A stretch of 64,000 nt of DNA, taken from positions 1,416-65,415 of the forward strand of contig JAJFLJ010000083.1 of NCBI GenBank assembly GCA_021772755.1, given 5' to 3'. This document shows positions 31,801 to 64,000 of the stretch, piece after piece (position 1 is the stretch's first letter; each line of letters begins with the position of its first letter). This stretch comes from Candidatus Sumerlaeota bacterium (lineage in GTDB: Bacteria; Sumerlaeota; Sumerlaeia; SLMS01; JAHLLQ01). Position numbers and translations under genes: made by a program. The notes under the pieces were generated by a model. That model saw nothing but the letters and a program-made list of their open reading frames with translations, did no database searches and was not told where the DNA came from.

Positions 31801-32582
31801 CGAAAGCGTTCGGGATCGTCCCAGAACGAATCGAGGTACGTGACGTAGTCCTCGCCCTCTCCCCCCGCCCAGGCCGGCTCGAACAGGTCCGCCCAGTCCT
31901 GCATCCCCATCTTTCCCGGACCCTGCAGGAAGAACCACTGGTACGCGTCGTACCAGGCCTCCTCGTAGCTCGTCAGCGACTCCTCCAGCACCTTCGTCAG
32001 GGCGTAGTCCACGAACGCCAGATTGAACGCCCACGCCGCCGACGCCGCGTTCATCGGAAACCGGTTCATGTAGTACAGCATCCCGGTCCGGACGTAGCCC
32101 CACATGTCCTCGTCCTTGAAGTTCTGGTCCACGTACAGCGCCTTGAAGAGCTGGTACGTCGCCAGAAACGCCCCGAGGTCCGTCAGGATGTTGTTCACCT
32201 CGCCCAAGCTGCGCGAGAACGCCGCGTCCGGCGAGATCGCCGACGCGGCGACGCTCGAACCCGTTACGCCGATCGCGCCGGCATTCACCACGCCTGGATT
32301 GGAAGAGAGTTCCTCGATGGAGGCGAGCACGAGGCCCGCCACCGCCTCGTTCCCCTGGTCGCGCGCCATCTGCGCGACCATCCGCGCGACGAGCTGCGTC
32401 GAGCGGCGTTCCCGCTCCTTCGTGTCCTCGATCGACCAGAGCGCGTCGAACTCCTCCGCCCACTCGACCGCGTTCAGGTCTCCGAGATCATCCGCCGCCG
32501 CCACACCCGGCAGCGCGAACAGCGCCGCCAGGGCGAGCAAACCAATGAATGCGCCAAGGGCGCGGCGAACCCGACAAGACAA
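28848..32582 (-). CDS. Giant secreted protein (1244 aa) with three carboxypeptidase-regulatory-like (CarbopepD_reg) beta-sandwich repeats
   Basis: Signal peptide MSCRVRRALGAFIGLLALAALFALPGVAAA. Repeated VRVVDSSSGDPVAGARVAW / TVQVVDRRSDKPIQGAKIDY / KVIVLDAGSGDPVAGATVRV modules flanked by acidic segments. About 330 aa helical N-domain and ~600 aa beta-rich C-region. Confidence 0.75.
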   Translation of the reverse strand: MSCRVRRALGAFIGLLALAALFALPGVAAADDLGDLNAVEWAEEFDALWSIEDTKERERRSTQLVARMVAQMARDQGNEAVAGLVLASIEELSSNPGVVNAGAIGVTGSSVAASAISPDAAFSRSLGEVNNILTDLGAFLATYQLFKALYVDQNFKDEDMWGYVRTGMLYYMNRFPMNAASAAWAFNLAFVDYALTKVLEESLTSYEEAWYDAYQWFFLQGPGKMGMQDWADLFEPAWAGGEGEDYVTYLDSFWDDPERFRLPGGAATTTAEIFDYYFTEVEGRRPPFTYRSALANARMKDAFRGRLVRNHLVTGMRMILEERRDLFEGRILNEIRAREQRLNAELRRLTERRDWTVRVVDSSSGDPVAGARVAWYTMWQNERGEFETAADGTGTINAPRMTPKLNFRIWKYRYRDSEDAFYPDKDPGPEITAHLQPHAPHGLTVQVVDRRSDKPIQGAKIDYWFEERTANGETDDEGFAWRDFPDGMYVVMAVEAPGYQPVSDWGVQLHEEPVLERIELEPEAGSAVGDLKVIVLDAGSGDPVAGATVRVDSGNHRDNGVSDPEGGVSLAVVPDALTKVEVAAVGFRSLADSIRVGPEGSVTTVRLERGGRASLPEALELAVEGGGRVEILKPLALRYSYSVPPGKKHDLAIKVLDSAGAEHDVEYRRDLVSAAGAESGVIRFDGPPRVGPYKARMAVIYGGKPFESAVLNFDAEYSGELSVTVKSDSGEEGVLRLMVPGLAELAPAPDSSLGVERVDWFMTMPGGRRVPSRDNGTERTAGANGYVNDIRFSERAALGTYEIEAQVVSVAGTVPARGRFELLPPEDVPPDSEFSSARVSWAGALTTGQSTPLMIDGLPFSTGDLAEGDIHGLGTYKGSDFRLDRGVVFFRPRLSGQQTAMFVLQHDGTDYPIKFSCNVDLTMIESRVSEEGLDESKGTVTLLFRAHRDFEPPFRIRRQTPRGALEMGAYQESMGSLMMKGELNLGELERPPVVDILDSEGAEARIDLASVVSRMEFRDTGIPLGTRAPLELRGTERVGNVRRGGVLVSPNIDVEYTGGTAKLFLETKRTDSRRQYLWAAMVGPRGIGVAGDWVDLKPADEVADATDSDCDPPSAVRTALQRIARLSGANNPMMGAINRRDIGEIQSQSASYFDDSIRVNRWAANLRNCDMLTNEDREFFGDMATALEGMKVLSDPASMQQMDQGTLQEKLSETQRIMGGLQSRSAAVERRIRRSGFYDLMYGN

Positions 32583-32683
32583 CGAGCCACTCCGAGAGTA
32601 TCGTACCGCAACGACTCGTCGGCGCTCTGCGAATCGTCAACCGGAAAGGCCCCCGGCGGCGGCCAGCGTGAAGAAGCGAACCC

Positions 32684-33325
32684 CTACGCCCCGCCCCGAA
32701 CCAGCTCCTTCACCCACTCGATGCCGCCCTCGATTCCCGCAGCCCCCAGGAAGAACACCGCATAGAGAGCCACCGCGTACACGCCCACCGACAACACCCC
32801 CACCAGCAGCGCCAGCGCCACGAACACGCCGTCCTTCTCCGTCAGGCCGATGCCGATCAGAAAGATCGCCCCCGCAGGAATCGTGTTCGTTCCCGGAATC
32901 GGCAGCGTCATCAGCGCCGCCATCGCCAGCACCAGCAGACTCATCCCCGCCATCGCCCACCGGCTGCCCACCCACTGGAACCGCGGCCGGATGAAGCGCT
33001 CCAGCTTCGACGTCACCTTCACCGCGAAACCCATCATCGCGCCGCCAAGCCGCTTCGGAATGCGTCGCCGGCGAATCCAGCCCGGCAACGCCGGCACCCG
33101 CCGCCCCATCAGCATCTGCATGCCCAGGATGAAGAGCGCGATCCCGAACGGCGTGCTGTAGCCCGCCGCCGGAACCGGCAGCGCCGACGGCAGCGACAGC
33201 ACCACCAGCAGCAGCCCGAACCCCTTCTCCCCCACATTGTCGAGAATCTCGCCGATCGTGATGCCCTCGGGATGATCGCCGGAGAGAACGTCGGCGAGAC
33301 TTTCGGAAAGACTGCGGGCGGTCAT
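32684..33325 (-). CDS. exoD: Exopolysaccharide synthesis protein ExoD family (inner-membrane)
   Basis: N-terminal pattern LSESLADVLSGDHPEGITIGEILDNVGEKGFGLLLVVLSLPSALPV...GIALFILGMQMLMGRRVPALPGWI is characteristic of ExoD. About 213 aa. Confidence 0.75.
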   Translation of the reverse strand: MTARSLSESLADVLSGDHPEGITIGEILDNVGEKGFGLLLVVLSLPSALPVPAAGYSTPFGIALFILGMQMLMGRRVPALPGWIRRRRIPKRLGGAMMGFAVKVTSKLERFIRPRFQWVGSRWAMAGMSLLVLAMAALMTLPIPGTNTIPAGAIFLIGIGLTEKDGVFVALALLVGVLSVGVYAVALYAVFFLGAAGIEGGIEWVKELVRGGA

Positions 33326-33500
33326 GGACGAAGGGCTCCGGAGCGGGCTGGCGAACAGGCGCGAACGGTTCGGTTCCCCCCCGCGCGGGCGCAACGGAAA
33401 GCCGGACCGCCCCGCCGACCGCTCCGCCCCCCGCGAGACCCGCGATTCCGTCCCCCGCCGACCTCCTCCGAACGCCCCCGCCCGGCCCTGCGGAGTGCCC

Positions 33501-33529
33501 TTGACAGCGCACCGACCTGCGGACAGCCT
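33501..33529 (+). promoter_or_regulatory. Possible tRNA-Ala promoter (TTGACA-N17-CAGCCT)
   Basis: Consensus -35 TTGACA at 33501-33506. Weak -10 candidate 17 bp downstream, about 18 nt before the mature tRNA 5' end. Confidence 0.2.
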
Positions 33530-33546
33530 TCGCGTCCCTCGCAAGT

Positions 33547-33622
33547 GGGGCTATAGCTCAGCTGGTAGAGCGCTGCGTTCGCAATGCAGAGGTCAGGGGT
33601 TCGACTCCCCTTAGCTCCACCA
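33547..33622 (+). tRNA. tRNA-Ala (anticodon CGC), 76 nt including encoded CCA
   Basis: Cloverleaf checked by hand: acceptor GGGGCUA/UAGCUCC with the G3:U70 Ala identity pair; D-stem GCUC/GAGC; anticodon loop UUCGCAA; T-arm AGGGG-UUCGACU-CCCCU. Confidence 0.9.
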
Positions 33623-33789
33623 CTCAAACCCAACGAAATCAACAGCCAGGAAGAAGGCGTCCGAGCGGCGCCAAGCCGGTTCGCGTGTCTCGGGTCTCCT
33701 CCGCGTCACGGGTGTTTGGGACTATCGTCAGGCACGGTGAAGTACGGAACTCTCGTTGAATACGCGGGGGTTCTCACCGTACCATTCTG

Positions 33790-34818
33790 TTGTTGCTTGA
33801 TAGCGCCAGCCACAAGGATCCCGGTATGCTCGAAAGAATCCGAAACCACCCATTCGTTGCTGGGATCATTATTTCCTCTGTTGTCTGGCTAACTTTGGGC
33901 GGCGTAATCGGACGCGCTTTCTTGGTGGTGACAGGCAAGAATGAGACCTATTTGAATGGAAGAATCACCGAACTTGGGGAGGCTCGCCGGTCTCTTGATG
34001 ATCGCGCCAAGGGAATCGCCACACTGGAAACAAGCAATCAGCTGCTGGAGTATAAACTGGGGGAGTCCCGTACCCAATTAGCCAGCCTGGAGGAGCAGAT
34101 TGCAAAATACAGGGAATTGCAGTTGGAGGACAAGTATGCCGCAGAACGCGCCAGAGTTCGCTCATTGTCCGCTCAGGTGGAAGATCTAAAACTCAGTAAG
34201 GATCAAGAGACTGATAGACTGAGGCGTAGAAACGATGACTTGAGAAAAGAAGTATCGGCACTCCGGGCAGAACTGGCGAGGCTACCTGCGTTGCAGGAGG
34301 AGGGGATCTCAGGTTCCTTGGCCGCTGTTGATACGCTTGTTGCCGAGAAGTTGGACCTTCAACAGAAGGTTGAGGGACTCGTGGGGGAGTTGGAATCCTG
34401 CAAGGATAGCCGGATGGAACAGGAACACCAGTTGTCTCTAACCAAGAATGAGTTGCGGGAAGTACGCCTAATCGTTTCGGGAATCAAGCCAAGTGAGATA
34501 GAGGAGTTTGGTGAACGGAGCCAAGCCTTGGAGTCATTGATGGTAGCCCTACGTGGACTGAGCAACGATGTTGAAGCGGGAAACACTCTGCTGCGAAATA
34601 TTGGAAAGGTGAAGGGAGGAGTCACACCAGAAGAGTGGATTGCTCTGCTCCGAGCTGCCAATATTAGTGATGACTACTGCTACGCACAAGTCATAGCAAA
34701 AAGCGTGAAACATGTTAGTGAGAAGCCAAGCCCAAAGCAGATCCAGACCATATTGAGCAGTATGCACAACGATTCGTACGAGTCCCAAGTCTATGGGTTC
34801 TTACAGGGAATAGACTGA
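33790..34818 (+). CDS. Low-GC (about 50%) membrane-anchored coiled-coil protein; horizontally acquired cargo next to the tRNA
   Basis: N-terminal TM helix (FVAGIIISSVVWLTLGGVIG) followed by ~280 aa of heptad-like coiled coil. GC content drops sharply compared with flanking DNA. Confidence 0.6.
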   Translation: MLLDSASHKDPGMLERIRNHPFVAGIIISSVVWLTLGGVIGRAFLVVTGKNETYLNGRITELGEARRSLDDRAKGIATLETSNQLLEYKLGESRTQLASLEEQIAKYRELQLEDKYAAERARVRSLSAQVEDLKLSKDQETDRLRRRNDDLRKEVSALRAELARLPALQEEGISGSLAAVDTLVAEKLDLQQKVEGLVGELESCKDSRMEQEHQLSLTKNELREVRLIVSGIKPSEIEEFGERSQALESLMVALRGLSNDVEAGNTLLRNIGKVKGGVTPEEWIALLRAANISDDYCYAQVIAKSVKHVSEKPSPKQIQTILSSMHNDSYESQVYGFLQGID

Positions 34819-34835
34819 GGGCATCGGCCAACCGA

Positions 34836-35063
34836 TTATAGCGCAATCGCCCTGACCCTCGCCTCCACGGGCTCCAGTTCCGGCATCGCCAACGTCCCGT
34901 CAGCCCCTTCGTCCGGGTAGAAGCGCAGGTAGTGCAGTTCGGTCGTCTCCGTCGTGCTGTGTCCGAGCACCTTTGACAGCTTGAGGATCGGGTCGCCCTC
35001 GCGGGCCAGCGTCGCGGCAAACGTGTGCCGCAGGGTGTGGAGTGTCAGCGGACGGCGCAGCAT
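34836..35063 (-). pseudogene. Tyrosine recombinase (phage-type integrase) C-terminal remnant
   Basis: Catalytic C-terminus LHTLRHTFAATLAREG...LGHSTTETTELHYL (H-x-x-R ... H ... Y). Upstream in-frame sequence is unrelated and overlaps a repeat, so the gene is truncated. Confidence 0.65.
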
Positions 35064-35215
35064 CGCGCGTCCGGAGCGGCTGACGTTCGCTTGGGCGGGA
35101 CGCCCAAGCCACCCTTTGCGATTCTTCGCGCTCTCCGCGACTTTGCGTTGTGCTCTTTCTCCGCGAACTCTCGCCGTCCTCGGCGTCTCTGCGTACCGCT
35201 CTTTCCCACCGCCGC
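35060..35215. repeat. ~160-bp repeat, copy A (about 85% identical to 51875-52027)
   Basis: gcatcgcgcgtccggagcggctgacgttcgcttgggcgggacgcccaagccaccc...ctctgcgtaccgctctttccc aligns to copy B in the same orientation. A partial third copy (gggcggcccaagccgccct) lies at ~35247-35270. Confidence 0.6.
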
Positions 35216-35342
35216 AGAACACGGTTTCAGCGCCGAGGCCACACGCCGGGCGGCCCAAGCCGCCCTCTTCCCCGTTGCGGCCCCAGGCCGGTCCTGCGAT
35301 TTTGCGCCGTCTTCAATCCTCTCCGTTCTGAAAGGACGCGGC

Positions 35343-36290
35343 ATGACGACGGCTCGGCCCTATCGCGACGACGATCTCGCCGGTGTCGTCTCCGCCTGGC
35401 GGCGCGCGCTGCCCCGGGACGCGGTGACGGAGGACGACTTCGTCCGCCGCGTCCTGCTGGACCGCAACCTGGAGCCCGACGGTCTGCTGGTGGCCGATGG
35501 CGCCGACGGCACCGTCGCCGGGTTCGCCCTCTGTCTGGTGCTGCGCCATCCCATCGAGAACGTCGGGCTGATGGAACACCGCGGTTTCGTCACCGCCTTC
35601 GGCGTCGCGCCGGAGCACCGCGGGCGCGGCGCCGGCGGCGCGCTGCTGAACGAGGCCGAGGCGTTCTTTCGCGAGCGCGGGCGGACGGAAATCGCCATCG
35701 CCCCCTATCCGCCGAACTACTTCGTGCCGGGGGTCGACCGCGTCGCGTACGCCGACGGGCTCGCCTGGCTGGAGAAGCGCGGCTTCGCCGAGTTCAGCGA
35801 GGGCATCGCCATGGACGCGATGATCGGCACGTTCGACCTGGCCGACGACGTGCGGGCGAAGGAGGAGGCGCTCGCCCGCGAGGGCCTGGTCGTCCGTCCT
35901 CTCTCGCGCGACCGCATCGCAGCGTTTCTCGCCTTCATGTCGGCGACGATGCCGGGCGACTGGGTGACCGACGCGCGCGAGCTGCTGAAGTCCGTCGCCG
36001 CCGGCGCCGCGCCGCGCGATTCGATCATGGTGGCGATGGACGGCGGCGAGATCGTCGGCTACTGCAAGTTTCGCGGCGAGCACTTCGGCCCCTTCGGCGT
36101 GGCGGACACGCACCAGGGGCGCGGCATCGGATCGGTGCTGCTGGCGCGGACACTGCTGCAGATGCGCCTGGAGGGGCACCACGCGGCGTTCGTCCTCTGG
36201 ACGGGCGAGCGCGCCGCGCGCGGCGTCTACGCGCGGCTGGGCTTTGCGGTGTCGCGGCGCTTCGCGATTCTCCGGAAACCGCTCGTCTGA
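35343..36290 (+). CDS. GNAT-family N-acetyltransferase with tandem acetyltransferase domains
   Basis: Two acetyl-CoA-binding motifs (HRGRGAGGALL; HQGRGIGSVLL). Confidence 0.8.
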   Translation: MTTARPYRDDDLAGVVSAWRRALPRDAVTEDDFVRRVLLDRNLEPDGLLVADGADGTVAGFALCLVLRHPIENVGLMEHRGFVTAFGVAPEHRGRGAGGALLNEAEAFFRERGRTEIAIAPYPPNYFVPGVDRVAYADGLAWLEKRGFAEFSEGIAMDAMIGTFDLADDVRAKEEALAREGLVVRPLSRDRIAAFLAFMSATMPGDWVTDARELLKSVAAGAAPRDSIMVAMDGGEIVGYCKFRGEHFGPFGVADTHQGRGIGSVLLARTLLQMRLEGHHAAFVLWTGERAARGVYARLGFAVSRRFAILRKPLV

Positions 36291-37669
36291 TGCGCGGAGT
36301 CGTTCGCGCGATGGCCTTCGCGATGGCGCTGGTGCCGCTTTCCTGCACGGCGCCGGGCGCGCCGGAGGGCAAGACGCTCGTCGAGTTCTGGGACTATCCG
36401 CGCCTGCCGGCGGTTTCGGAGTACGTGCGGAACGGCATCGCGGAGTTCGAACGCCTGAATCCCGACGTGCACGTCGAGTTCACGCGGCTGAGCTGGGCCA
36501 AGGGGGGCGAACGGCTCGACATCGCGGCGTTCGCGGGGCGGCCGCCGGACCTGGCCGGGGCGACGCTGACGCTGAAGTACGTCGAGGCGGGGCTGCTCGA
36601 ACCGCTCGACGCGTACCTCGACGAGGAGATTCCCGACATGCCGGGCACGACCTGGCGCGAGGACATCCATCCGGAAATCCTGCGCGCCGTGCAGTGGGAG
36701 GACCGCACGTGGGCGATGCCCTGGTACAAGGAGGGCTTCGTCATTCTGCTGAATCTGGACATCCTGGCGGAGCGCGGCGTCGAGCCTCCCGCGAACGGGC
36801 GATGGACCTGGGACGAATTCCTCGCCGCCATGCGCGAACTGACGTTCGACCGCGATGGCGACGGCAGGACCGACGTCTACGGCATCGGGTTCAGCACCGG
36901 AAAGGAGAAATGGGAGGCGTATCCCTTTCTCTTCGCGGAGGGCATGACCATCATGAGCGAGGACGGTCGGCGCATGACGATCGATTCCGGCGCGACGCGG
37001 CGCGGCATCGAACGGCTGATAGACATGGAGTACGGGGAACGCATCAGCCTGCCCGGCGCCGGCGGAATCACCGACGACACGACGTGGACGGCGTTCTCGG
37101 GCCGCGAGCGCCGTCTCGCCGCGACGTGCCAGGGTCTCTGGGCGATCAACGCCGTCGCGATCCAGAACCGCCGCCTCGACGAATCGCGCGAGCAGCACGC
37201 GAACGCGGCGGACCTGCCGGACCCGTTGAACGTCGCCGTCGTCGCCTTTCCACGAATGCCCGGCCAGCCCCAGGTCATGGCGTCCTACGGCGTCGGTTCC
37301 TACACGGTGTTCAAGCGCCCCACCGATCCGAAGCGCACGGAGGCTGCGGCGCGGCTCGCGCGGTTTCTGACGCTCGAACACGGCCAGGAGATCAACCGCG
37401 AGGCGGGTCTGCTGCCGAGCCGCGCGTCGAAGACCGGCGTTCTCGCCGGCGATCCGCGCTTCGAGAACGTCCTCGACATGATTCCCTCCGCCATTTCGCC
37501 GCCGACGCATCCCGCGTGGCAGCAGCTCGACCAGGTCATCGGCGAGCAGTTGCAGCTCGCCCTGCTGCGGCGCGTCGATATCGACACCGCCGTGCGCAAC
37601 ATGCAGGAACGCGGGCAGATGGTGCTCGACGACTACTGGAAGAGCCGCGACGCCGCGGCCGGGGACTGA
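36290..37669 (+). CDS. ABC transporter substrate-binding lipoprotein (family 1 sugar/oligosaccharide SBP)
   Basis: Lipobox LVPLSC. ATG overlaps the GNAT stop (TGATG). Typical family-1 SBP pattern (TLVEFWDY...AMPWYKEGFVILLN...). Confidence 0.85.
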   Translation: MRGVVRAMAFAMALVPLSCTAPGAPEGKTLVEFWDYPRLPAVSEYVRNGIAEFERLNPDVHVEFTRLSWAKGGERLDIAAFAGRPPDLAGATLTLKYVEAGLLEPLDAYLDEEIPDMPGTTWREDIHPEILRAVQWEDRTWAMPWYKEGFVILLNLDILAERGVEPPANGRWTWDEFLAAMRELTFDRDGDGRTDVYGIGFSTGKEKWEAYPFLFAEGMTIMSEDGRRMTIDSGATRRGIERLIDMEYGERISLPGAGGITDDTTWTAFSGRERRLAATCQGLWAINAVAIQNRRLDESREQHANAADLPDPLNVAVVAFPRMPGQPQVMASYGVGSYTVFKRPTDPKRTEAAARLARFLTLEHGQEINREAGLLPSRASKTGVLAGDPRFENVLDMIPSAISPPTHPAWQQLDQVIGEQLQLALLRRVDIDTAVRNMQERGQMVLDDYWKSRDAAAGD

Positions 37670-43447: not shown

Positions 43448-43500
43448 GGGGGTTTCCGAAGGCGCGGCGCGCGCCTTGTTCCTTCAAGCGCAGCGCGCTT

Positions 43501-43670
43501 GGAGATGGTAGCCTTTGGTTGCCGCAGGCAACCAAAGGAACCCGAACACCACGGAACGAACCGCAGGGCGGTTCGACGATCTTCCCGACCCGGCCTGTCG
43601 AACCGCTCTGCGGTTCGGATCGTTGCCTGCACAACCTGCGGTAGCCGCTTGCGCGGCAACCGCAGGCTAT
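43501..43670. repeat. Cluster of four GC-rich hairpins (REP-like or structured RNA)
   Basis: cctttggttgc-CGCAG-gcaaccaaagg (11-bp stem); cgaaccgc-agg-gcggttcg; cgaaccgc-tct-gcggttcg; cctgcggt...accgcagg. The first unit, with flanks, recurs at 62277-62318. Confidence 0.45.
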
Positions 43671-50506: not shown

Positions 50507-50558
50507 GCGCGGATCGGAAGAAGAGAGGAAGAGCAAGAGAACGGTACGCAGAGGCGCG

Positions 50559-50609
50559 CCGGAGCTCCCCCGAGAAGGATTCAACGCAAAGACGCGGAGA
50601 ATCGCAAAG
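50559..50609. repeat. 51-bp direct repeat core, left copy (ccggagctcccccgagaaggattcaacgcaaagacgcggagaatcgcaaag)
   Basis: Near-identical copy at 51781-51831. Preceded by gaacggtacgcagaggcgcg, the inverse of the ctctgcgtaccg motif found at 35196, 51768 and 51996. Confidence 0.6.
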
Positions 50610-50625
50610 GTTCGCAAAGAACAGC

Positions 50626-51606
50626 TTGGAGCGTCCCAGCAACTCTACAAAGGGCAAGCCCTCCAAACGGGTATGCGAATTCCTCTGGACACTACCCCAT
50701 CGAAGGTGCGCTCCACTCTTGGGTATGTCTCCCATACCGAGCGCGATCCGATCCCTGACCGCTGTTTTTGCCGGCAAGCATCACCCGTCAACGTGGAAGG
50801 TGGTCGGATTCGGTTGGAAGCCGTATGTCTTTGGGCCTCTGGTTTGCGGCCTGGCGATCCCGATCATACAACAAATCCCTGCGCTGCCGCCACTTCCTTC
50901 GATCTGGGCGTCTCCCCGATTCACGCCGAACTCCTTCTTGGACTGGAAAGTATTCGTCGTCATTGGTGTGGGGCTGATGACCCGAAGGCGACTCGAAGCG
51001 CTCCGCTCGTCGGAAGTGCGGGTCCTCCCGGTCTGCCGAGCACAGATCACATTGGCGATTCTTCTCCAGCTGTCCCTGGCGTTTCTCCTCGCCGGGTTCG
51101 TAGCCCTGGTTGCCGACTGCGTTTCGAAATCCAACGCGCTATGGGCTCGTGACATTCCGTGGTGGAGACTCCCTCAGCGGTCTATGGCCTGCGTTCTTCT
51201 GGAGTCGCATAAGGGAAGCATGTCCATCTTTCAGGTACTTGCTGTGGCGTGTATCGAGATCGTCACGCAGCTCTGCCTCTTGATGGGCACTATGGGACTT
51301 CTGATACTTGGCTACGTCCTTCTTCAGACAGCAAGGAACCATTCCCTGGGTCTGGTCTACGTATTCGCGGCTTGCTTCGTATCGCTGTATGGCTGGGCAC
51401 GATTCCCCCTCCTGTTCCATCGCTCCGCCCGTATTCTCTATGACTACACCGGGGTGAACCCGTATGGATACTGGTACTACGCGTCCACCGACCTGCTGGT
51501 TCGGATGATACTGGCCACCCTTCACTGCCTGGCGGCATGGTATGCATGTCGTCATATGCACAAATGGATCTGGGCGGACAGACTTGGCGCTGCGCCAGGA
51601 CGGTGA
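50626..51606 (+). CDS. Low-GC polytopic membrane protein (326 aa; start may be internal), horizontally acquired
   Basis: GC about 55% versus about 68% nearby. At least eight hydrophobic helices. Bracketed by the direct and inverted repeat set. Confidence 0.5.
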   Translation: MERPSNSTKGKPSKRVCEFLWTLPHRRCAPLLGMSPIPSAIRSLTAVFAGKHHPSTWKVVGFGWKPYVFGPLVCGLAIPIIQQIPALPPLPSIWASPRFTPNSFLDWKVFVVIGVGLMTRRRLEALRSSEVRVLPVCRAQITLAILLQLSLAFLLAGFVALVADCVSKSNALWARDIPWWRLPQRSMACVLLESHKGSMSIFQVLAVACIEIVTQLCLLMGTMGLLILGYVLLQTARNHSLGLVYVFAACFVSLYGWARFPLLFHRSARILYDYTGVNPYGYWYYASTDLLVRMILATLHCLAAWYACRHMHKWIWADRLGAAPGR

Positions 51607-51780
51607 GGCGCGGTTCCGAGACATGATTGCGCGAGGTGGCGAGTGGATAAGGGGAGAGAGCGAGCAGGAAGGAAAAACCGGGTTCTTCTTCGCGAACCTT
51701 TGCGTGCTTGGCGCCTCTGCGTTTAGCTCTTTCTCTGCGACCTCCGCACCCTCAGCGCCTCTGCGTACCGCTTTTCCCTC

Positions 51781-51831
51781 CCGGAGCTCCCCTGAGAAGG
51801 ATTCAACGCAAAGACGCAGAGAATCGCAAAG
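51781..51831. repeat. 51-bp direct repeat core, right copy
   Basis: Matches 50559-50609 with 2 mismatches and 1 indel. The preceding 51680-51700 (cgcgaacctttgcg) is the inverse of 50600-50620 (cgcaaaggttcgcaaag). Confidence 0.6.
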
Positions 51832-51874
51832 AGCGCGTAGTGGACGAGCAGCGTGGCGTTGGCGTCTCGCCGAA

Positions 51875-52027
51875 GCATCGCGCGTCCGGAGCGGCTGACG
51901 TTCGCCTGGGCGGGGACGCCCAAGCCACCCTTCGCGCGCTTCGCGACTTCGCGTTGTGCTCATTCTCTGCGAGCTCTCGCCGTTCCTTTGCGCCTCTGCG
52001 TACCGCTTTTTCCGATCGCCGCTCCTC
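51875..52027. repeat. ~160-bp repeat, copy B (homologous to 35060-35215)
   Basis: Sits directly between the right 51-bp core and the 3' end of the PhzF gene. Confidence 0.6.
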
Positions 52028-61918: not shown

Positions 61919-62276
61919 GAGAGTGCTCCTTCTTGGGTGAGTGTAGCCTTGGGTTTCACCCTGCCGGTAGATCGGTCCACGCGCAAGCCCGAAGTTCCCA
62001 TTTCTAACGGAAATCTGTCCTTGTTCTCGCATTTCGCGGAAAGCGGGTGGCGCACCCTGAATCCCGAACGAATCGACGCGTGATCAACTGAAAACAGTGG
62101 ACTTGGACGGTTTCGGTCCTGGGCCGCGACCGGCGCCATCTGGTGGCGGAGGACGGGAGTTTCGCGCAGAGAGGCGAAGACGCGGAGAAGAGACGGGAGG
62201 CGGAGAGGGCGCGAAGGGGCGAGGATGTCGGCTGCGAGCGGGATCGGGGCGAGTATCCCTCCGGCGCATCGCGCCT

Positions 62277-62318
62277 GGAGATGTCAGCCTTGTGTTGCCG
62301 CAGGCAACCCGGGGAACC
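62277..62318. repeat. Second copy of the 42-bp palindromic element ggagatgNNagcctNgNgttgccgcaggcaaccNNgggaacc
   Basis: Matches 43501-43542 in 36 of 42 positions, including the core palindrome gttgcc-gca-ggcaac. Sits in the same position relative to flanking minus-strand genes. Confidence 0.5.
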
Positions 62319-62418
62319 GGATGTGTTGGAAAGAACAGCGTCGCTGTTCGACAAGCCTCTCGCGGACAACGACCAACGAAGAACGGTCAACCGCTCTTCC
62401 CGGGAGCGCCACGGACCG

Positions 62419-64000
62419 CTATTTGGCCTTCTTCTTCGCAGCCTTCTTGGCGGAGGACTTCTTCGCGGCCTTCTTGACGGATTTCTTGACCGCCTTCTTG
62501 GCGGCCTTCTTCCGTCCGCCGCCGGACTTCGCCTTGGCGGCGATCAGTTCCTTCGCCTGCTCCAGCGTGATGCTCTCCGGCGCTGTGTCCTTGGGCAGCG
62601 TGGCGTTGGTGTCGCCATCTGTGACATAGGGGCCGTATCGCCCGTCGAGCACCTGGATGGACTCGCCGAGGTCCTTGAGGACGGCCTTCTTCGCGGCGGC
62701 CCGGCGGCCCTGCTTGGGCTGGGCGAGGAGTTCCAGGGCGCGCTCCAGCGTGATCGTATAGGGGCTGTCCGGTTCCTTGATGGAGCGGAAATCGCGGTCC
62801 ATCTGGACGTAGGGGCCGTAGCGACCGTTGTTGGCGAGGATCGGGGTGCCGGTCTCGGGATGGGTGCCGAGTTCGCGGGGGAGGGAGAGCAGATGCAGGG
62901 CGGTTTCGAGATCGACGTCGTCCTCGGCCATGTCCTTTTCGAGCGAGGCGCGGCGGGGCTTCTCCTTGGAGTCGCCGGTTTCTCCGAGCTGGACGTAGGG
63001 CCCGAAGCGGCCCCGGGCGGCGTAGACGGTCAGGCCGGACTTCGGGTCGGTTCCGACGGCGCGGGGGCCTTCGGCCTTGCGGCGGATCATCTGTGCGGCG
63101 TCTTCGACGGTCAGATCGGCGGGAGCGATGTCGGGCGGCACGTTGGCGCGGTTGCCGTCGCCGCCCTCTCCGCGAACCAGGTAGGGGCCGTAGCGGCCGA
63201 TGCGCAGAACGATGGGCTCGGCGGTCTCGGGGTCTTCGCCCAGGGCGGTGTCGGGAAAGCCGATGCGCTCGACCTCGCGCTCGATGCGGCTGGCCAGACC
63301 GGTGCTGTCGGCTGCGGTGGCTCCGCTGGCGCCGTAGTAGAACTGGCGGACGTGATCGACCCAGTCGCGGGCGCCGTCGGCGATTTCGTCGAGTTCCTCT
63401 TCCATGCGCGCGGTGAACTTCAGATCGACGTAGTCGGCGAAGTGGCTGCGCATCAGGTTCGTCACGGCCATGGCGGTGAAGGTGGGCACCAGGGCGCCGC
63501 CGCTCTTGGCGCTGTTGGCATAGCCGCGGTTCTGGATGGTGGTGATGATGGAGGCGTACGTGGAGGGGCGGCCGATGCCCTCCTCTTCGAGCTTCTTGAC
63601 CAGAGCGGCTTCGGTGTAGCGGGCCGGCGGCATGGTGACGTGCTGGTTGGCCTTTACGTCGCCGAAAGTGGCCGGACCCGGTTCGCGGCCGATGGTCTGG
63701 CCTTCTCTGAGATCGGGAAGGATCGTTTCCTTGTCGCCGAGTTCCGCGGCGGGATCGTCGCTGCCCTCGACATAGGCGCGCAGGTACCCGGGGAAGAGGA
63801 TCTTCTTGCCGCTGACGGAGAACACCGCCGGGCCGCGCCGACAGGGGGCGGTGATTTCGATGGTGGTGCGAAGGACGTCGGCTTCGGGCATCTGGCTGGC
63901 GAGGGTGCGCTTCCAGATCAGCTCGTAGACGCGGGCCTCCTCCTTCGAGAGGTAGCGCTCGATGTCCTGGGGGCGGCGTCCGAACTGCGTCGGGCGGATC
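62419..64000 (-). CDS. topA: DNA topoisomerase I, 3' portion (gene continues beyond the window end)
   Basis: Repeated Zn-ribbon-like GRYGPYV/GRFGPYV modules and a Lys-rich C-terminal tail. In-frame continuation to base 64000 encodes ...ELIWKRTLASQMPEA, which is TopA core sequence. Confidence 0.9.
   Translation of the reverse strand, partial: IRPTQFGRRPQDIERYLSKEEARVYELIWKRTLASQMPEADVLRTTIEITAPCRRGPAVFSVSGKKILFPGYLRAYVEGSDDPAAELGDKETILPDLREGQTIGREPGPATFGDVKANQHVTMPPARYTEAALVKKLEEEGIGRPSTYASIITTIQNRGYANSAKSGGALVPTFTAMAVTNLMRSHFADYVDLKFTARMEEELDEIADGARDWVDHVRQFYYGASGATAADSTGLASRIEREVERIGFPDTALGEDPETAEPIVLRIGRYGPYLVRGEGGDGNRANVPPDIAPADLTVEDAAQMIRRKAEGPRAVGTDPKSGLTVYAARGRFGPYVQLGETGDSKEKPRRASLEKDMAEDDVDLETALHLLSLPRELGTHPETGTPILANNGRYGPYVQMDRDFRSIKEPDSPYTITLERALELLAQPKQGRRAAAKKAVLKDLGESIQVLDGRYGPYVTDGDTNATLPKDTAPESITLEQAKELIAAKAKSGGGRKKAAKKAVKKSVKKAAKKSSAKKAAKKKAK

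What the first reader, a model, noticed from the sequence alone, without database searches (positions are those of the whole stretch)
33547..35215. tRNA-Ala-flanked low-GC islet with an integrase remnant
Immediately 3' of tRNA-Ala(CGC), GC drops from about 68% to about 50% across a gene for a TM-anchored coiled-coil protein. This is followed by the catalytic C-terminus of a tyrosine integrase (HxLRHTFA...LGHS...Y) whose N-terminal two-thirds has been replaced by a ~160-bp repeat. tRNA 3' ends are classic attB sites, so this looks like the decayed remnant of an integrative element. The coiled-coil cargo gene is intact and presumably retained for a reason.
Basis: seen in the sequence. Interest (0 to 1): 0.6.

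Follow-up and report, generated by a model that had tools for sequence, protein, structure and literature searches.

The report
Decayed tRNA-Ala genomic islet, orphan cargo
Next to a tRNA-Ala gene in a high-GC Sumerlaeota-like genome lies the stump of an integrated mobile element: one intact foreign gene of unknown function plus the last fifth of an integrase gene. This is an ordinary kind of relic, with a mildly interesting cargo position.

Summary
tRNA-Ala(CGC) lies at 33547-33622. A 1.13-kb low-GC block (33715-34847, 51% against 68-70%) holds one intact gene for a membrane-anchored coiled-coil protein. On the minus strand, 34836-35063 encodes the last ~75 residues of a tyrosine integrase (Pfam PF00589, above threshold). 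Its upstream part is replaced by a 163-nt repeat that recurs near 51.9 kb.

The decayed-islet interpretation holds. Full-length distant relatives of this integrase end 29-108 nt from a convergent tRNA gene, the same orientation as here. No attR copy of the tRNA end survives, and no empty site could be found.

New points:
- The integrase stump has host-like codon composition (GC3 0.84) and the cargo does not (0.55), so the cargo sits in a slot between the tRNA and the integrase stop codon.
- The three closest integrase relatives are also stumps, each followed by convergent low-GC cargo. One cargo is a type IX retron reverse transcriptase and one is Lamassu-LmuA-like.
- The same repeat brackets a second low-GC single-gene islet at 50.6-51.6 kb.

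The cargo protein belongs to a tiny uncharacterised family, and a defence role is only inferred. Verdict: a new member of a known kind, of modest interest.

The parts
33547..33622 (+). tRNA-Ala(CGC), presumed attB/attL side of the islet
   Evidence: ARAGORN. Rfam RF00005, 69.5 bits.
33623..33714 (.). 93-nt spacer of host-like or intermediate GC between the tRNA and the low-GC block. Its length is comparable to the 29-108 nt between tRNA and integrase stop codon in intact relatives.
   Evidence: Segmentation. Relatives.
33715..34847 (.). Low-GC foreign block (GC 0.51)
33826..34818 (+). Intact cargo gene, 330 aa: N-terminal transmembrane helix, about 200 aa of coiled coil, and a C-terminal ~100-aa six-helix domain. 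There is an alternative TTG start at 33790, and an AAGGA motif 7 nt upstream of the ATG.
   Evidence: ORF. It is identical to the NCBI-annotated protein P0001. Five full-length distant homologues exist. AlphaFold2 models.
34836..35063 (-). 3' fragment of a tyrosine integrase gene (75-aa annotated ORF; HxxR, LGH and Y present). Homology may run on to about 35084.
   Evidence: Pfam PF00589, 34.8 bits. PHROG integrase families. NCBIfam. tblastn with full-length relatives covers 34884-35084.
35053..35215 (+). Copy A of a dispersed GC-rich modular repeat that replaces the integrase N-terminal part. It lies within a 261-nt block (35051-35311) bracketed by 24-nt imperfect inverted repeats.
50507..50621 (-). 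Repeat copy D, inverted, on the left flank of the second low-GC islet
50725..51606 (+). Second low-GC single-gene islet (GC 0.58, GC3 0.67): a polytopic membrane protein with no family match
51686..52022 (+). Repeat copies C (51686-51831) and B (51868-52022). On the minus strand B shares with A the 47-nt core that translates to PAQANVSRSGRAMLRR.

Best explanation
This is the degraded left end of an integrative element (a prophage or genomic island) that once inserted at the 3' end of tRNA-Ala(CGC).

In this integrase family the int gene lies at the very edge of the element and reads outward, so its stop codon ends a few dozen bases from the tRNA. In this lineage a short piece of foreign, lower-GC DNA carrying one convergent gene occupies the gap between the tRNA spacer and the integrase stop codon. 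I call this position a cargo slot.

Later a deletion or rearrangement removed the N-terminal ~300 codons of int and the rest of the element, including attR. Its break point now lies in a dispersed GC-rich repeat. What remains is tRNA, cargo gene, integrase stump and repeat, next to the host GNAT gene. The stump cannot recombine DNA, so the islet is fixed in place.

The cargo protein is a membrane-anchored coiled coil with a small helical-repeat C-terminal domain. By analogy with the cargo found at the same position next to the closest integrase relatives, its most likely role is an accessory envelope or phage-exclusion function. That role is inferred, not shown.

Shown: the anatomy, the composition, the integrase homology, the layout in relatives, and the absence of attR. 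Inferred: the order of events, the cargo-slot idea and the cargo function.
For: Anatomy and composition:
- tRNA, GC break and ORFs.
- Integrase homology.

Layout in relatives:
- int and tRNA are convergent and 29-108 nt apart in L014, L035 and L057, and 39 nt apart in L009/L010.
- Proviral relatives sit at contig ends reading outward.

Cargo slot:
- The low-GC block ends within 11 nt of the integrase stop codon and begins 93 nt after the tRNA.
- GC3 of the integrase stump is 0.84 (host-like) and of the cargo 0.55.

Closest integrase relatives:
- P0003 (76% identical), P0015 (68%) and P0016 (57%) are each followed, within 25 nt of the stop codon, by a sharp GC drop and convergent unrelated genes.
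- Two of these cargoes match defence models: PADLOC RT_IX at E 4.6e-137, and the LmuA C-terminus at E 1.4e-15.

Loss of the rest of the element:
- No other integrase-like sequence is present in the window.
- The host GNAT gene and its conserved downstream synteny begin 290 nt beyond the stump.
Against: - There is no attR or any partial duplicate of the tRNA 3' end, so integration at this tRNA is inferred from layout only.
- No empty-site genome was available.
- The cargo protein has no significant match to any defence, phage or plasmid protein. PADLOC hits are weak, coiled-coil-type matches of 16 bits or less, and phages and plasmids gave nothing.
- The closest integrase relatives lie on contigs of 3 kb or less with no tRNA in view, so the cargo slot next to a tRNA is directly seen only in this window.
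- Contiguity across the islet rests on one assembly. An independent assembly of run SRR15505512 breaks at 33592 and 35086.
Confidence: 0.72

Rival explanations
1. Two separate events (tandem accretion). The integrase belonged to an older element at tRNA-Ala. The low-GC gene arrived later as an independent insertion at the tRNA/attL side and was never cargo of the integrase's element.
For: The compositional histories differ sharply: GC3 is 0.55 for the cargo and 0.84 for the integrase stump. The GC boundary falls exactly at the integrase stop codon.
Against: No second att-like repeat of the tRNA end lies between cargo and integrase. The gap is only 17 nt and unrelated to the tRNA. The islet has no recombinase or transposase of its own. 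The same tight integrase-stop/cargo-stop junction recurs in three related loci with different cargo, which suggests a recurrent slot rather than a one-off event.
Confidence: 0.15
2. The dispersed repeat, not the integrase, defines the islets. Foreign single genes are captured at or moved by a MITE-like or hairpin repeat, and the integrase stump is incidental.
For: Both low-GC islets in the 64-kb window abut the same repeat family. Islet 2 is bracketed by a 19-nt, 95%-complementary inverted repeat and by 16-nt perfect inverted repeats. Block A is bracketed by 24-nt inverted repeats and folds slightly better than shuffles, z = -2.7.
Against: Islet 1 has the repeat on one side only. The spacer after the tRNA has no significant similarity to the repeat. 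No transposase and no target-site duplication were seen. Repeats and foreign genes may simply both accumulate in dispensable intergenic space. The repeat was not found in the three related Sumerlaeota loci.
Confidence: 0.08
3. Assembly chimera. The segment between the tRNA and the repeat was wrongly joined into this metagenome-assembled contig at conserved or repeated sequences.
For: Contigs of an independent assembly, identical to the window, stop at 33592 (inside the tRNA) and start at 35086 (inside the repeat). The cargo gene is not on record in that assembly.
Against: The integrase stump is continuous with repeat copy A, whose core is 94% identical to copy B on the same contig. The integrase stump has host-like GC3. 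The same integrase-stump plus low-GC-cargo layout occurs in three unrelated metagenome contigs. Breaks at repeats and tRNAs are expected in short-read graph assemblies.
Confidence: 0.05

Closest known systems
tRNA-associated genomic islands and prophage remnants with tyrosine integrases (lambda/P4-type layout, 'tycheposon'-like cargo elements). Named from my own knowledge of the field.
   Same: It lies at the 3' end of a tRNA gene, has a phage-type tyrosine integrase at the island edge reading towards the tRNA, carries compositionally foreign cargo, and has decayed by deletion.
   Different: No attL/attR direct repeats survive. Only about 20% of the integrase and a single cargo gene remain. 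The cargo lies between the tRNA and the integrase stop codon instead of inside the element.
Defence-gene hotspots in integrated mobile elements. Examples are E. coli defence islands at integrase-associated hotspots (PMC10121019) and defence systems pervasive in chromosomally integrated mobile elements (PMC10201445). Only titles and abstracts were seen.
   Same: In the closest integrase relatives the position next to the integrase stop codon holds variable low-GC genes, including a type IX retron reverse transcriptase and an LmuA-like protein.
   Different: The window's own cargo matches no known defence family. The hotspot idea rests on four loci, three of them on contigs of 3 kb or less.
DUF4476 (PF14771) helical-repeat domain
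   Same: The C-terminal domain model (pLDDT 93.8) superposes on giant-virus proteins at TM 0.60-0.77, one of them annotated DUF4476. It carries a three-fold S-x-D...I helix motif.
   Different: The Pfam match is marginal, E 0.11 for one of ten family members. No solved structure matches. The function of DUF4476 is itself unknown.

Membership tests
Tyrosine recombinase / phage integrase (PF00589) | Catalytic-domain profile match above the curated threshold | tested here: met
   34.8 bits against a gathering score of 27.1, profile positions 117-167 of 172. PHROG integrase families at about 1e-10.
Tyrosine recombinase / phage integrase (PF00589) | Complete catalytic set (Arg-I, Lys, His-x-x-Arg, His/Trp, Tyr) and an N-terminal core-binding (SAM-like) domain, i.e. 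a functional enzyme | tested here: not met
   Only HxxR, LGH and Y are present. tblastn with three full-length relatives finds nothing else in the window. The relatives are 370-381 aa and carry Phage_int_SAM_3.
tRNA-integrated genomic island / prophage remnant | Adjacent to the 3' end of a tRNA gene, with the integrase at the island edge | tested here: met
   Relatives show the same orientation 29-108 nt from tRNAs.
tRNA-integrated genomic island / prophage remnant | Direct repeat of the tRNA 3' end (attR) at the distal border | tested here: not met
   There is no shared 12-mer or longer, and no 21-25-nt match with up to 3 mismatches, anywhere in the window.
tRNA-integrated genomic island / prophage remnant | Atypical base composition or codon usage | tested here: met
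   GC 0.51 against 0.68-0.70, log-likelihood ratio 59. GC3 0.55 against 0.85-0.92.
tRNA-integrated genomic island / prophage remnant | Absent from the same site in related genomes (empty attB) | tested here: inconclusive
   Three Sumerlaeota genomes share only the GNAT-downstream synteny and have no tRNA nearby.
Integron (considered) | Cassettes adjacent to the 5' end of intI at attI, with attC sites | tested here: not met
   The cargo lies at the 3' end of the integrase fragment and is convergent with it. No attC-like inverted repeat lies in the 17-nt gap. The region that would hold the IntI-specific domain is deleted, so that feature cannot be tested.
SSV-type split integrase (attP inside int; considered) | The truncated 5' end of int(C) abuts the att/tRNA junction, and an int(N) fragment lies at the other border | tested here: not met
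   The truncated end abuts the repeat, not the tRNA. No N-terminal integrase fragment exists in the window.
Known anti-phage defence systems (PADLOC-DB 2.0) | Significant profile match of the cargo protein | tested here: not met
   The best hit is LmuB at E 6e-4 and 16 bits, over the coiled coil only.
DUF4476 (PF14771) | Profile match of the C-terminal domain | tested here: inconclusive
   E 0.11 for one of ten members. Structural similarity TM 0.60 to a protein annotated DUF4476.

The most novel reading that the evidence does not exclude
In one clade of tRNA-targeting integrative elements of soil and sediment bacteria, the few bases between the integrase stop codon and the att site act as an exchange slot for small low-GC defence modules. 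The membrane-anchored coiled-coil protein with a DUF4476-like domain would then be an undescribed single-gene phage-exclusion system. A linked possibility is that 'repeat plus integrase stump plus cargo' is a non-autonomous unit that has been copied within the genome, since both islets share the order cargo, integrase-like remnant, repeat.
Probability: 0.12. Interest if true: 0.55.

Novelty: new member of a known kind. Interest (0 to 1): 0.3.

Why it matters
This is a textbook-type relic: a mobile element that integrated at a tRNA gene, decayed, and left one foreign gene behind. Its value is local. It marks a horizontally acquired, intact gene of a very rare protein family (about six clusters among 1.84 billion representatives) in a poorly known phylum. 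It also hints that the position between integrase stop codon and att site is a cargo slot that elsewhere carries retron and Lamassu-like defence genes. If that holds, the cargo gene is a reasonable candidate for testing as a phage-exclusion factor.

Tried and rejected
- attR search. I looked for a direct repeat of the tRNA 3' end or spacer with k-mers of 10-14 nt and with 21-25-nt patterns allowing 3 mismatches. None was found.
- Spacer against repeat. The similarity between the post-tRNA spacer and the repeat is not above shuffled controls: score 24, null maximum 27.
- Empty-site comparison. Three Sumerlaeota loci were fetched through the GNAT gene, but synteny is lost upstream and no tRNA is present.
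- Close full-length integrase relatives. None was found. The protein search lists only hits of 172 aa or less for a 98-aa query, which may be a length bias of the tool. tblastn-type scans of JGI metagenomes and IMG/VR gave at most 44% identity over matches of about 70 residues or more; higher values (up to 63%) only over 35-50 residues.
- Cargo function. Pfam, PHROGs, PADLOC and NCBIfam gave only coiled-coil noise. PDB sequence and fold searches gave nothing. Phages and plasmids gave nothing. Neighbours of the five homologues are not conserved.
- Other RNA features. Rfam finds only the tRNA in the whole window.
- Alternative architectures. Integron and SSV-type split-integrase readings were rejected on orientation and on the missing N-terminal fragment.

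Full report
**Observation**

ARAGORN and Rfam place tRNA-Ala(CGC) at 33547-33622 on the + strand. It is the only tRNA and the only Rfam match in the window.

GC content falls from 0.67-0.76 to 0.47-0.55 downstream of the tRNA. A three-segment maximum-likelihood fit puts the low-GC block at 33715-34847. Its GC is 0.51, against 0.68 on the left and 0.70 on the right, with a log-likelihood ratio of 59.

The block holds one ORF, 33826-34818 (+), of 330 aa. It is identical to a protein annotated on an 80,495-nt NCBI contig. Its GC3 is 0.55, against 0.85-0.92 in the flanking genes, and it lies 10 sd below the 1-kb GC background.

Seventeen bases after its stop codon, on the other strand, an ORF ends at 34836. 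The last ~75 residues of that ORF (MLRRPLTLHTLRHTFA...LGHS...HY...) match several integrase models:
- Pfam Phage_integrase at 34.8 bits (gathering score 27.1), profile positions 117-167 of 172.
- PHROG integrase families at about 1e-10.
- Xer/integrase NCBIfam models, all below their cut-offs, as expected for a fragment.

Upstream of the fragment, 35053-35215 is a repeat. It matches 51874-52022 at 84% over 159 nt (E 4e-26), and a 47-nt core is 94% identical. All elements of the finding are therefore real. Two corrections apply: about four-fifths of the integrase is missing, and the GC drop starts 93 nt after the tRNA.

**Organism and neighbourhood**

The GNAT gene at 35343-36290 has 72-76% identical relatives in three Candidatus Sumerlaeota/Sumerlaeia genomes. 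Gene order downstream of GNAT is conserved in them. Nothing upstream is conserved, and none has a tRNA nearby. No empty-site comparison was therefore possible.

On the other side of the tRNA lie an ExoD-family gene and a large secreted protein, both with host composition.

**The integrase**

tblastn with three full-length distant relatives finds only one integrase-like stretch in the window, 34884-35084. The N-terminal ~300 codons are therefore gone, not displaced.

Those full-length relatives are 370-381 aa and carry Phage_int_SAM_3 plus Phage_integrase. Their stop codons lie close to the 3' end of a convergent tRNA gene:

| Locus | Distance from integrase stop to tRNA | tRNA |
|---|---|---|
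| L014 | 29 nt | tRNA-Arg |
| L035 | 42 nt | tRNA-Glu |
| L057 | 108 nt | tRNA-Ser |

A 52%-identical fragment (P0017) lies 39 nt from tRNA-Gly and is cut upstream by an IS630-type transposase gene. Relatives in IMG/VR typically sit within about 30 nt of a proviral contig end and read outward.

The canonical layout of this integrase family is therefore tRNA and int convergent at the element's edge. That is the orientation in the window.

Against it, no copy of the tRNA 3' end or of the spacer exists elsewhere in the 64 kb. The distal border must have been lost together with the rest of the element.

**A cargo slot**

The integrase stump has host-like GC3 (0.84) and the cargo does not (0.55). 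The low-GC block ends within 11 nt of the integrase stop codon. Removing the block would leave the tRNA about 93 nt from that stop codon, within the 29-108 nt range of the intact relatives. The foreign gene therefore appears to occupy the gap between the att/tRNA side and the integrase.

The three closest relatives of the stump show the same arrangement. All are on contigs of 3 kb or less:

| Relative | Identity to the stump | Locus | GC of integrase remnant | GC of downstream DNA |
|---|---|---|---|---|
| P0003 | 76% | L002 | 63% | ~45% |
| P0015 | 68% | L007 | 63% | ~35% |
| P0016 | 57% | L008 | 68% | ~48% |

In each, the remnant is followed within 25 nt of its stop codon by the GC drop and by convergent, mutually unrelated genes.

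- In L007 the cargo is a type IX retron reverse transcriptase (PADLOC RT_IX, E 4.6e-137; Pfam RVT_1).
- In L008 the C-terminus of a 494-aa protein matches Lamassu LmuA at E 1.4e-15.
- In L008 a host DUF72 gene abuts the stump.
- In L002 a truncated Cas_NE0113-like ORF abuts the stump, and L007 has an internally deleted integrase.

Pairwise dN/dS among the window, L002 and L007 fragments is about 0.1, with dS of 1-1.6. P0015 has lost the catalytic Tyr. The fragments therefore diverged as working genes and were truncated independently.

One caution applies. All 120 listed protein hits were 172 aa or shorter for a 98-aa query. The search may simply not show full-length proteins, so 'all close relatives are stumps' may be an ascertainment effect. 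Length-independent scans of JGI metagenomes and IMG/VR found nothing above 44% identity over matches of about 70 residues or more; higher values (up to 63%) occur only over 35-50 residues.

**The cargo protein**

An exhaustive HMMER search of 1.84 billion representatives found only five full-length relatives. They are 317-353 aa, 22-27% identical, with E-values from 5e-16 to 3e-5. A few other proteins share only the C-terminal ~90 residues.

Family members share three features:
- an N-terminal hydrophobic helix;
- a long coiled coil;
- a C-terminal domain with a three-fold S-x-D...I motif.

AlphaFold2 gives pLDDT 78 for the whole protein and 93.8 (pTM 0.85) for the C-terminal domain, a six-helix bundle. 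Foldseek finds giant-virus proteins of unknown function at TM 0.60-0.77, one of them annotated DUF4476. PDB searches find nothing.

Pfam, PHROGs, PADLOC and NCBIfam give only coiled-coil-type noise, plus a marginal DUF4476 hit. There is no match in phage or plasmid collections.

The homologues lie in 34-50% GC contigs next to unrelated genes: an AAA_15-like ATPase fragment, an IS4-type transposase, and other membrane or coiled-coil proteins. No partner gene is conserved.

The gene is intact and clearly horizontally acquired from a lower-GC source. Its function is unknown. An envelope-associated exclusion or defence role is an inference from position only.

**The repeat and a second islet**

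The repeat family has copies only at 35053-35215 (A), 50507-50621 (D, inverted), 51686-51831 (C) and 51868-52022 (B). It is absent from the three Sumerlaeota loci.

Copies D and C/B bracket the only other low-GC stretch of the window, at about 50620-51610. Its GC is 0.58 and its GC3 0.67. It holds one gene for a polytopic membrane protein with no family match.

Integrase homology in the window appears to run about 30 nt into the A/B shared core. Copy B may therefore contain a ~10-codon integrase remnant. Both islets would then share the order cargo (+), integrase remnant (-), repeat. This is suggestive, but it rests on too few residues to test.

**Independent assembly**

Contigs from run SRR15505512 are 100% identical to the window, but they end at 33592 (inside the tRNA) and begin at 35086 (inside the repeat). 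The cargo gene is not on record there. This fits graph breaks at repeated sequence, or population heterogeneity at the islet. It is also the main reason to keep a small probability for misassembly.

**Verdict**

This is a decayed, immobile islet at tRNA-Ala with an integrase stump and one intact foreign gene.

It is a new member of a well-known kind. The added points are of modest interest and need larger-scale comparison to establish: cargo inserted between the att side and the integrase stop codon, defence genes at that position in relatives, and a shared repeat at a second islet.

Noticed in passing
window 50507-52022: A second low-GC single-gene islet (GC 0.58). It holds an ORF at 50725-51606 for a polytopic membrane protein with no family hits. 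It fits exactly between the stop codons of a glycosyltransferase gene and a PhzF-family gene. It is bracketed by inverted copies of the repeat that truncates the integrase at 35053.
   Followed up: partly
window 35053-35099 and 51868-51914: A 47-nt core shared at 94% identity. On the minus strand it translates to PAQANVSRSGRAMLRR in both copies. Integrase profile and tblastn alignments extend about 30 nt into it, so copy B may be a second, tiny integrase remnant.
   Followed up: partly
L002, L007, L008 (metagenome contigs): The closest relatives of the integrase fragment are also C-terminal stumps, each followed immediately by convergent low-GC genes. L007 carries a type IX retron reverse transcriptase and L008 an LmuA-like protein. 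dN/dS among the stumps is about 0.1. The recurrence may be partly an ascertainment effect of the protein search.
   Followed up: partly
L178 (= window 32572-33592) and L001 (= window 35086-36424): Contigs from run SRR15505512, assembled independently, are identical to the window but break inside the tRNA and inside the repeat, exactly flanking the islet. This could reflect repeats or strain heterogeneity at this site.
   Followed up: partly
window 43480-43545 and 62256-62321: A 66-nt direct repeat (80% identical) contains a perfect palindrome, GGTTGCCGCAGGCAACC. It is a different dispersed repeat family from the one at the islets.
   Followed up: no
window 62809-63231: Three 51-nt copies spaced 186 nt apart (63-73% identical), probably a repeated protein domain in a coding region.
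   Followed up: no
L010 47-1117: An IS630-type (DDE_3) transposase gene is inserted directly upstream of a 52%-identical integrase fragment that lies 39 nt from tRNA-Gly. This is another route to the same kind of integrase stump.
   Followed up: no
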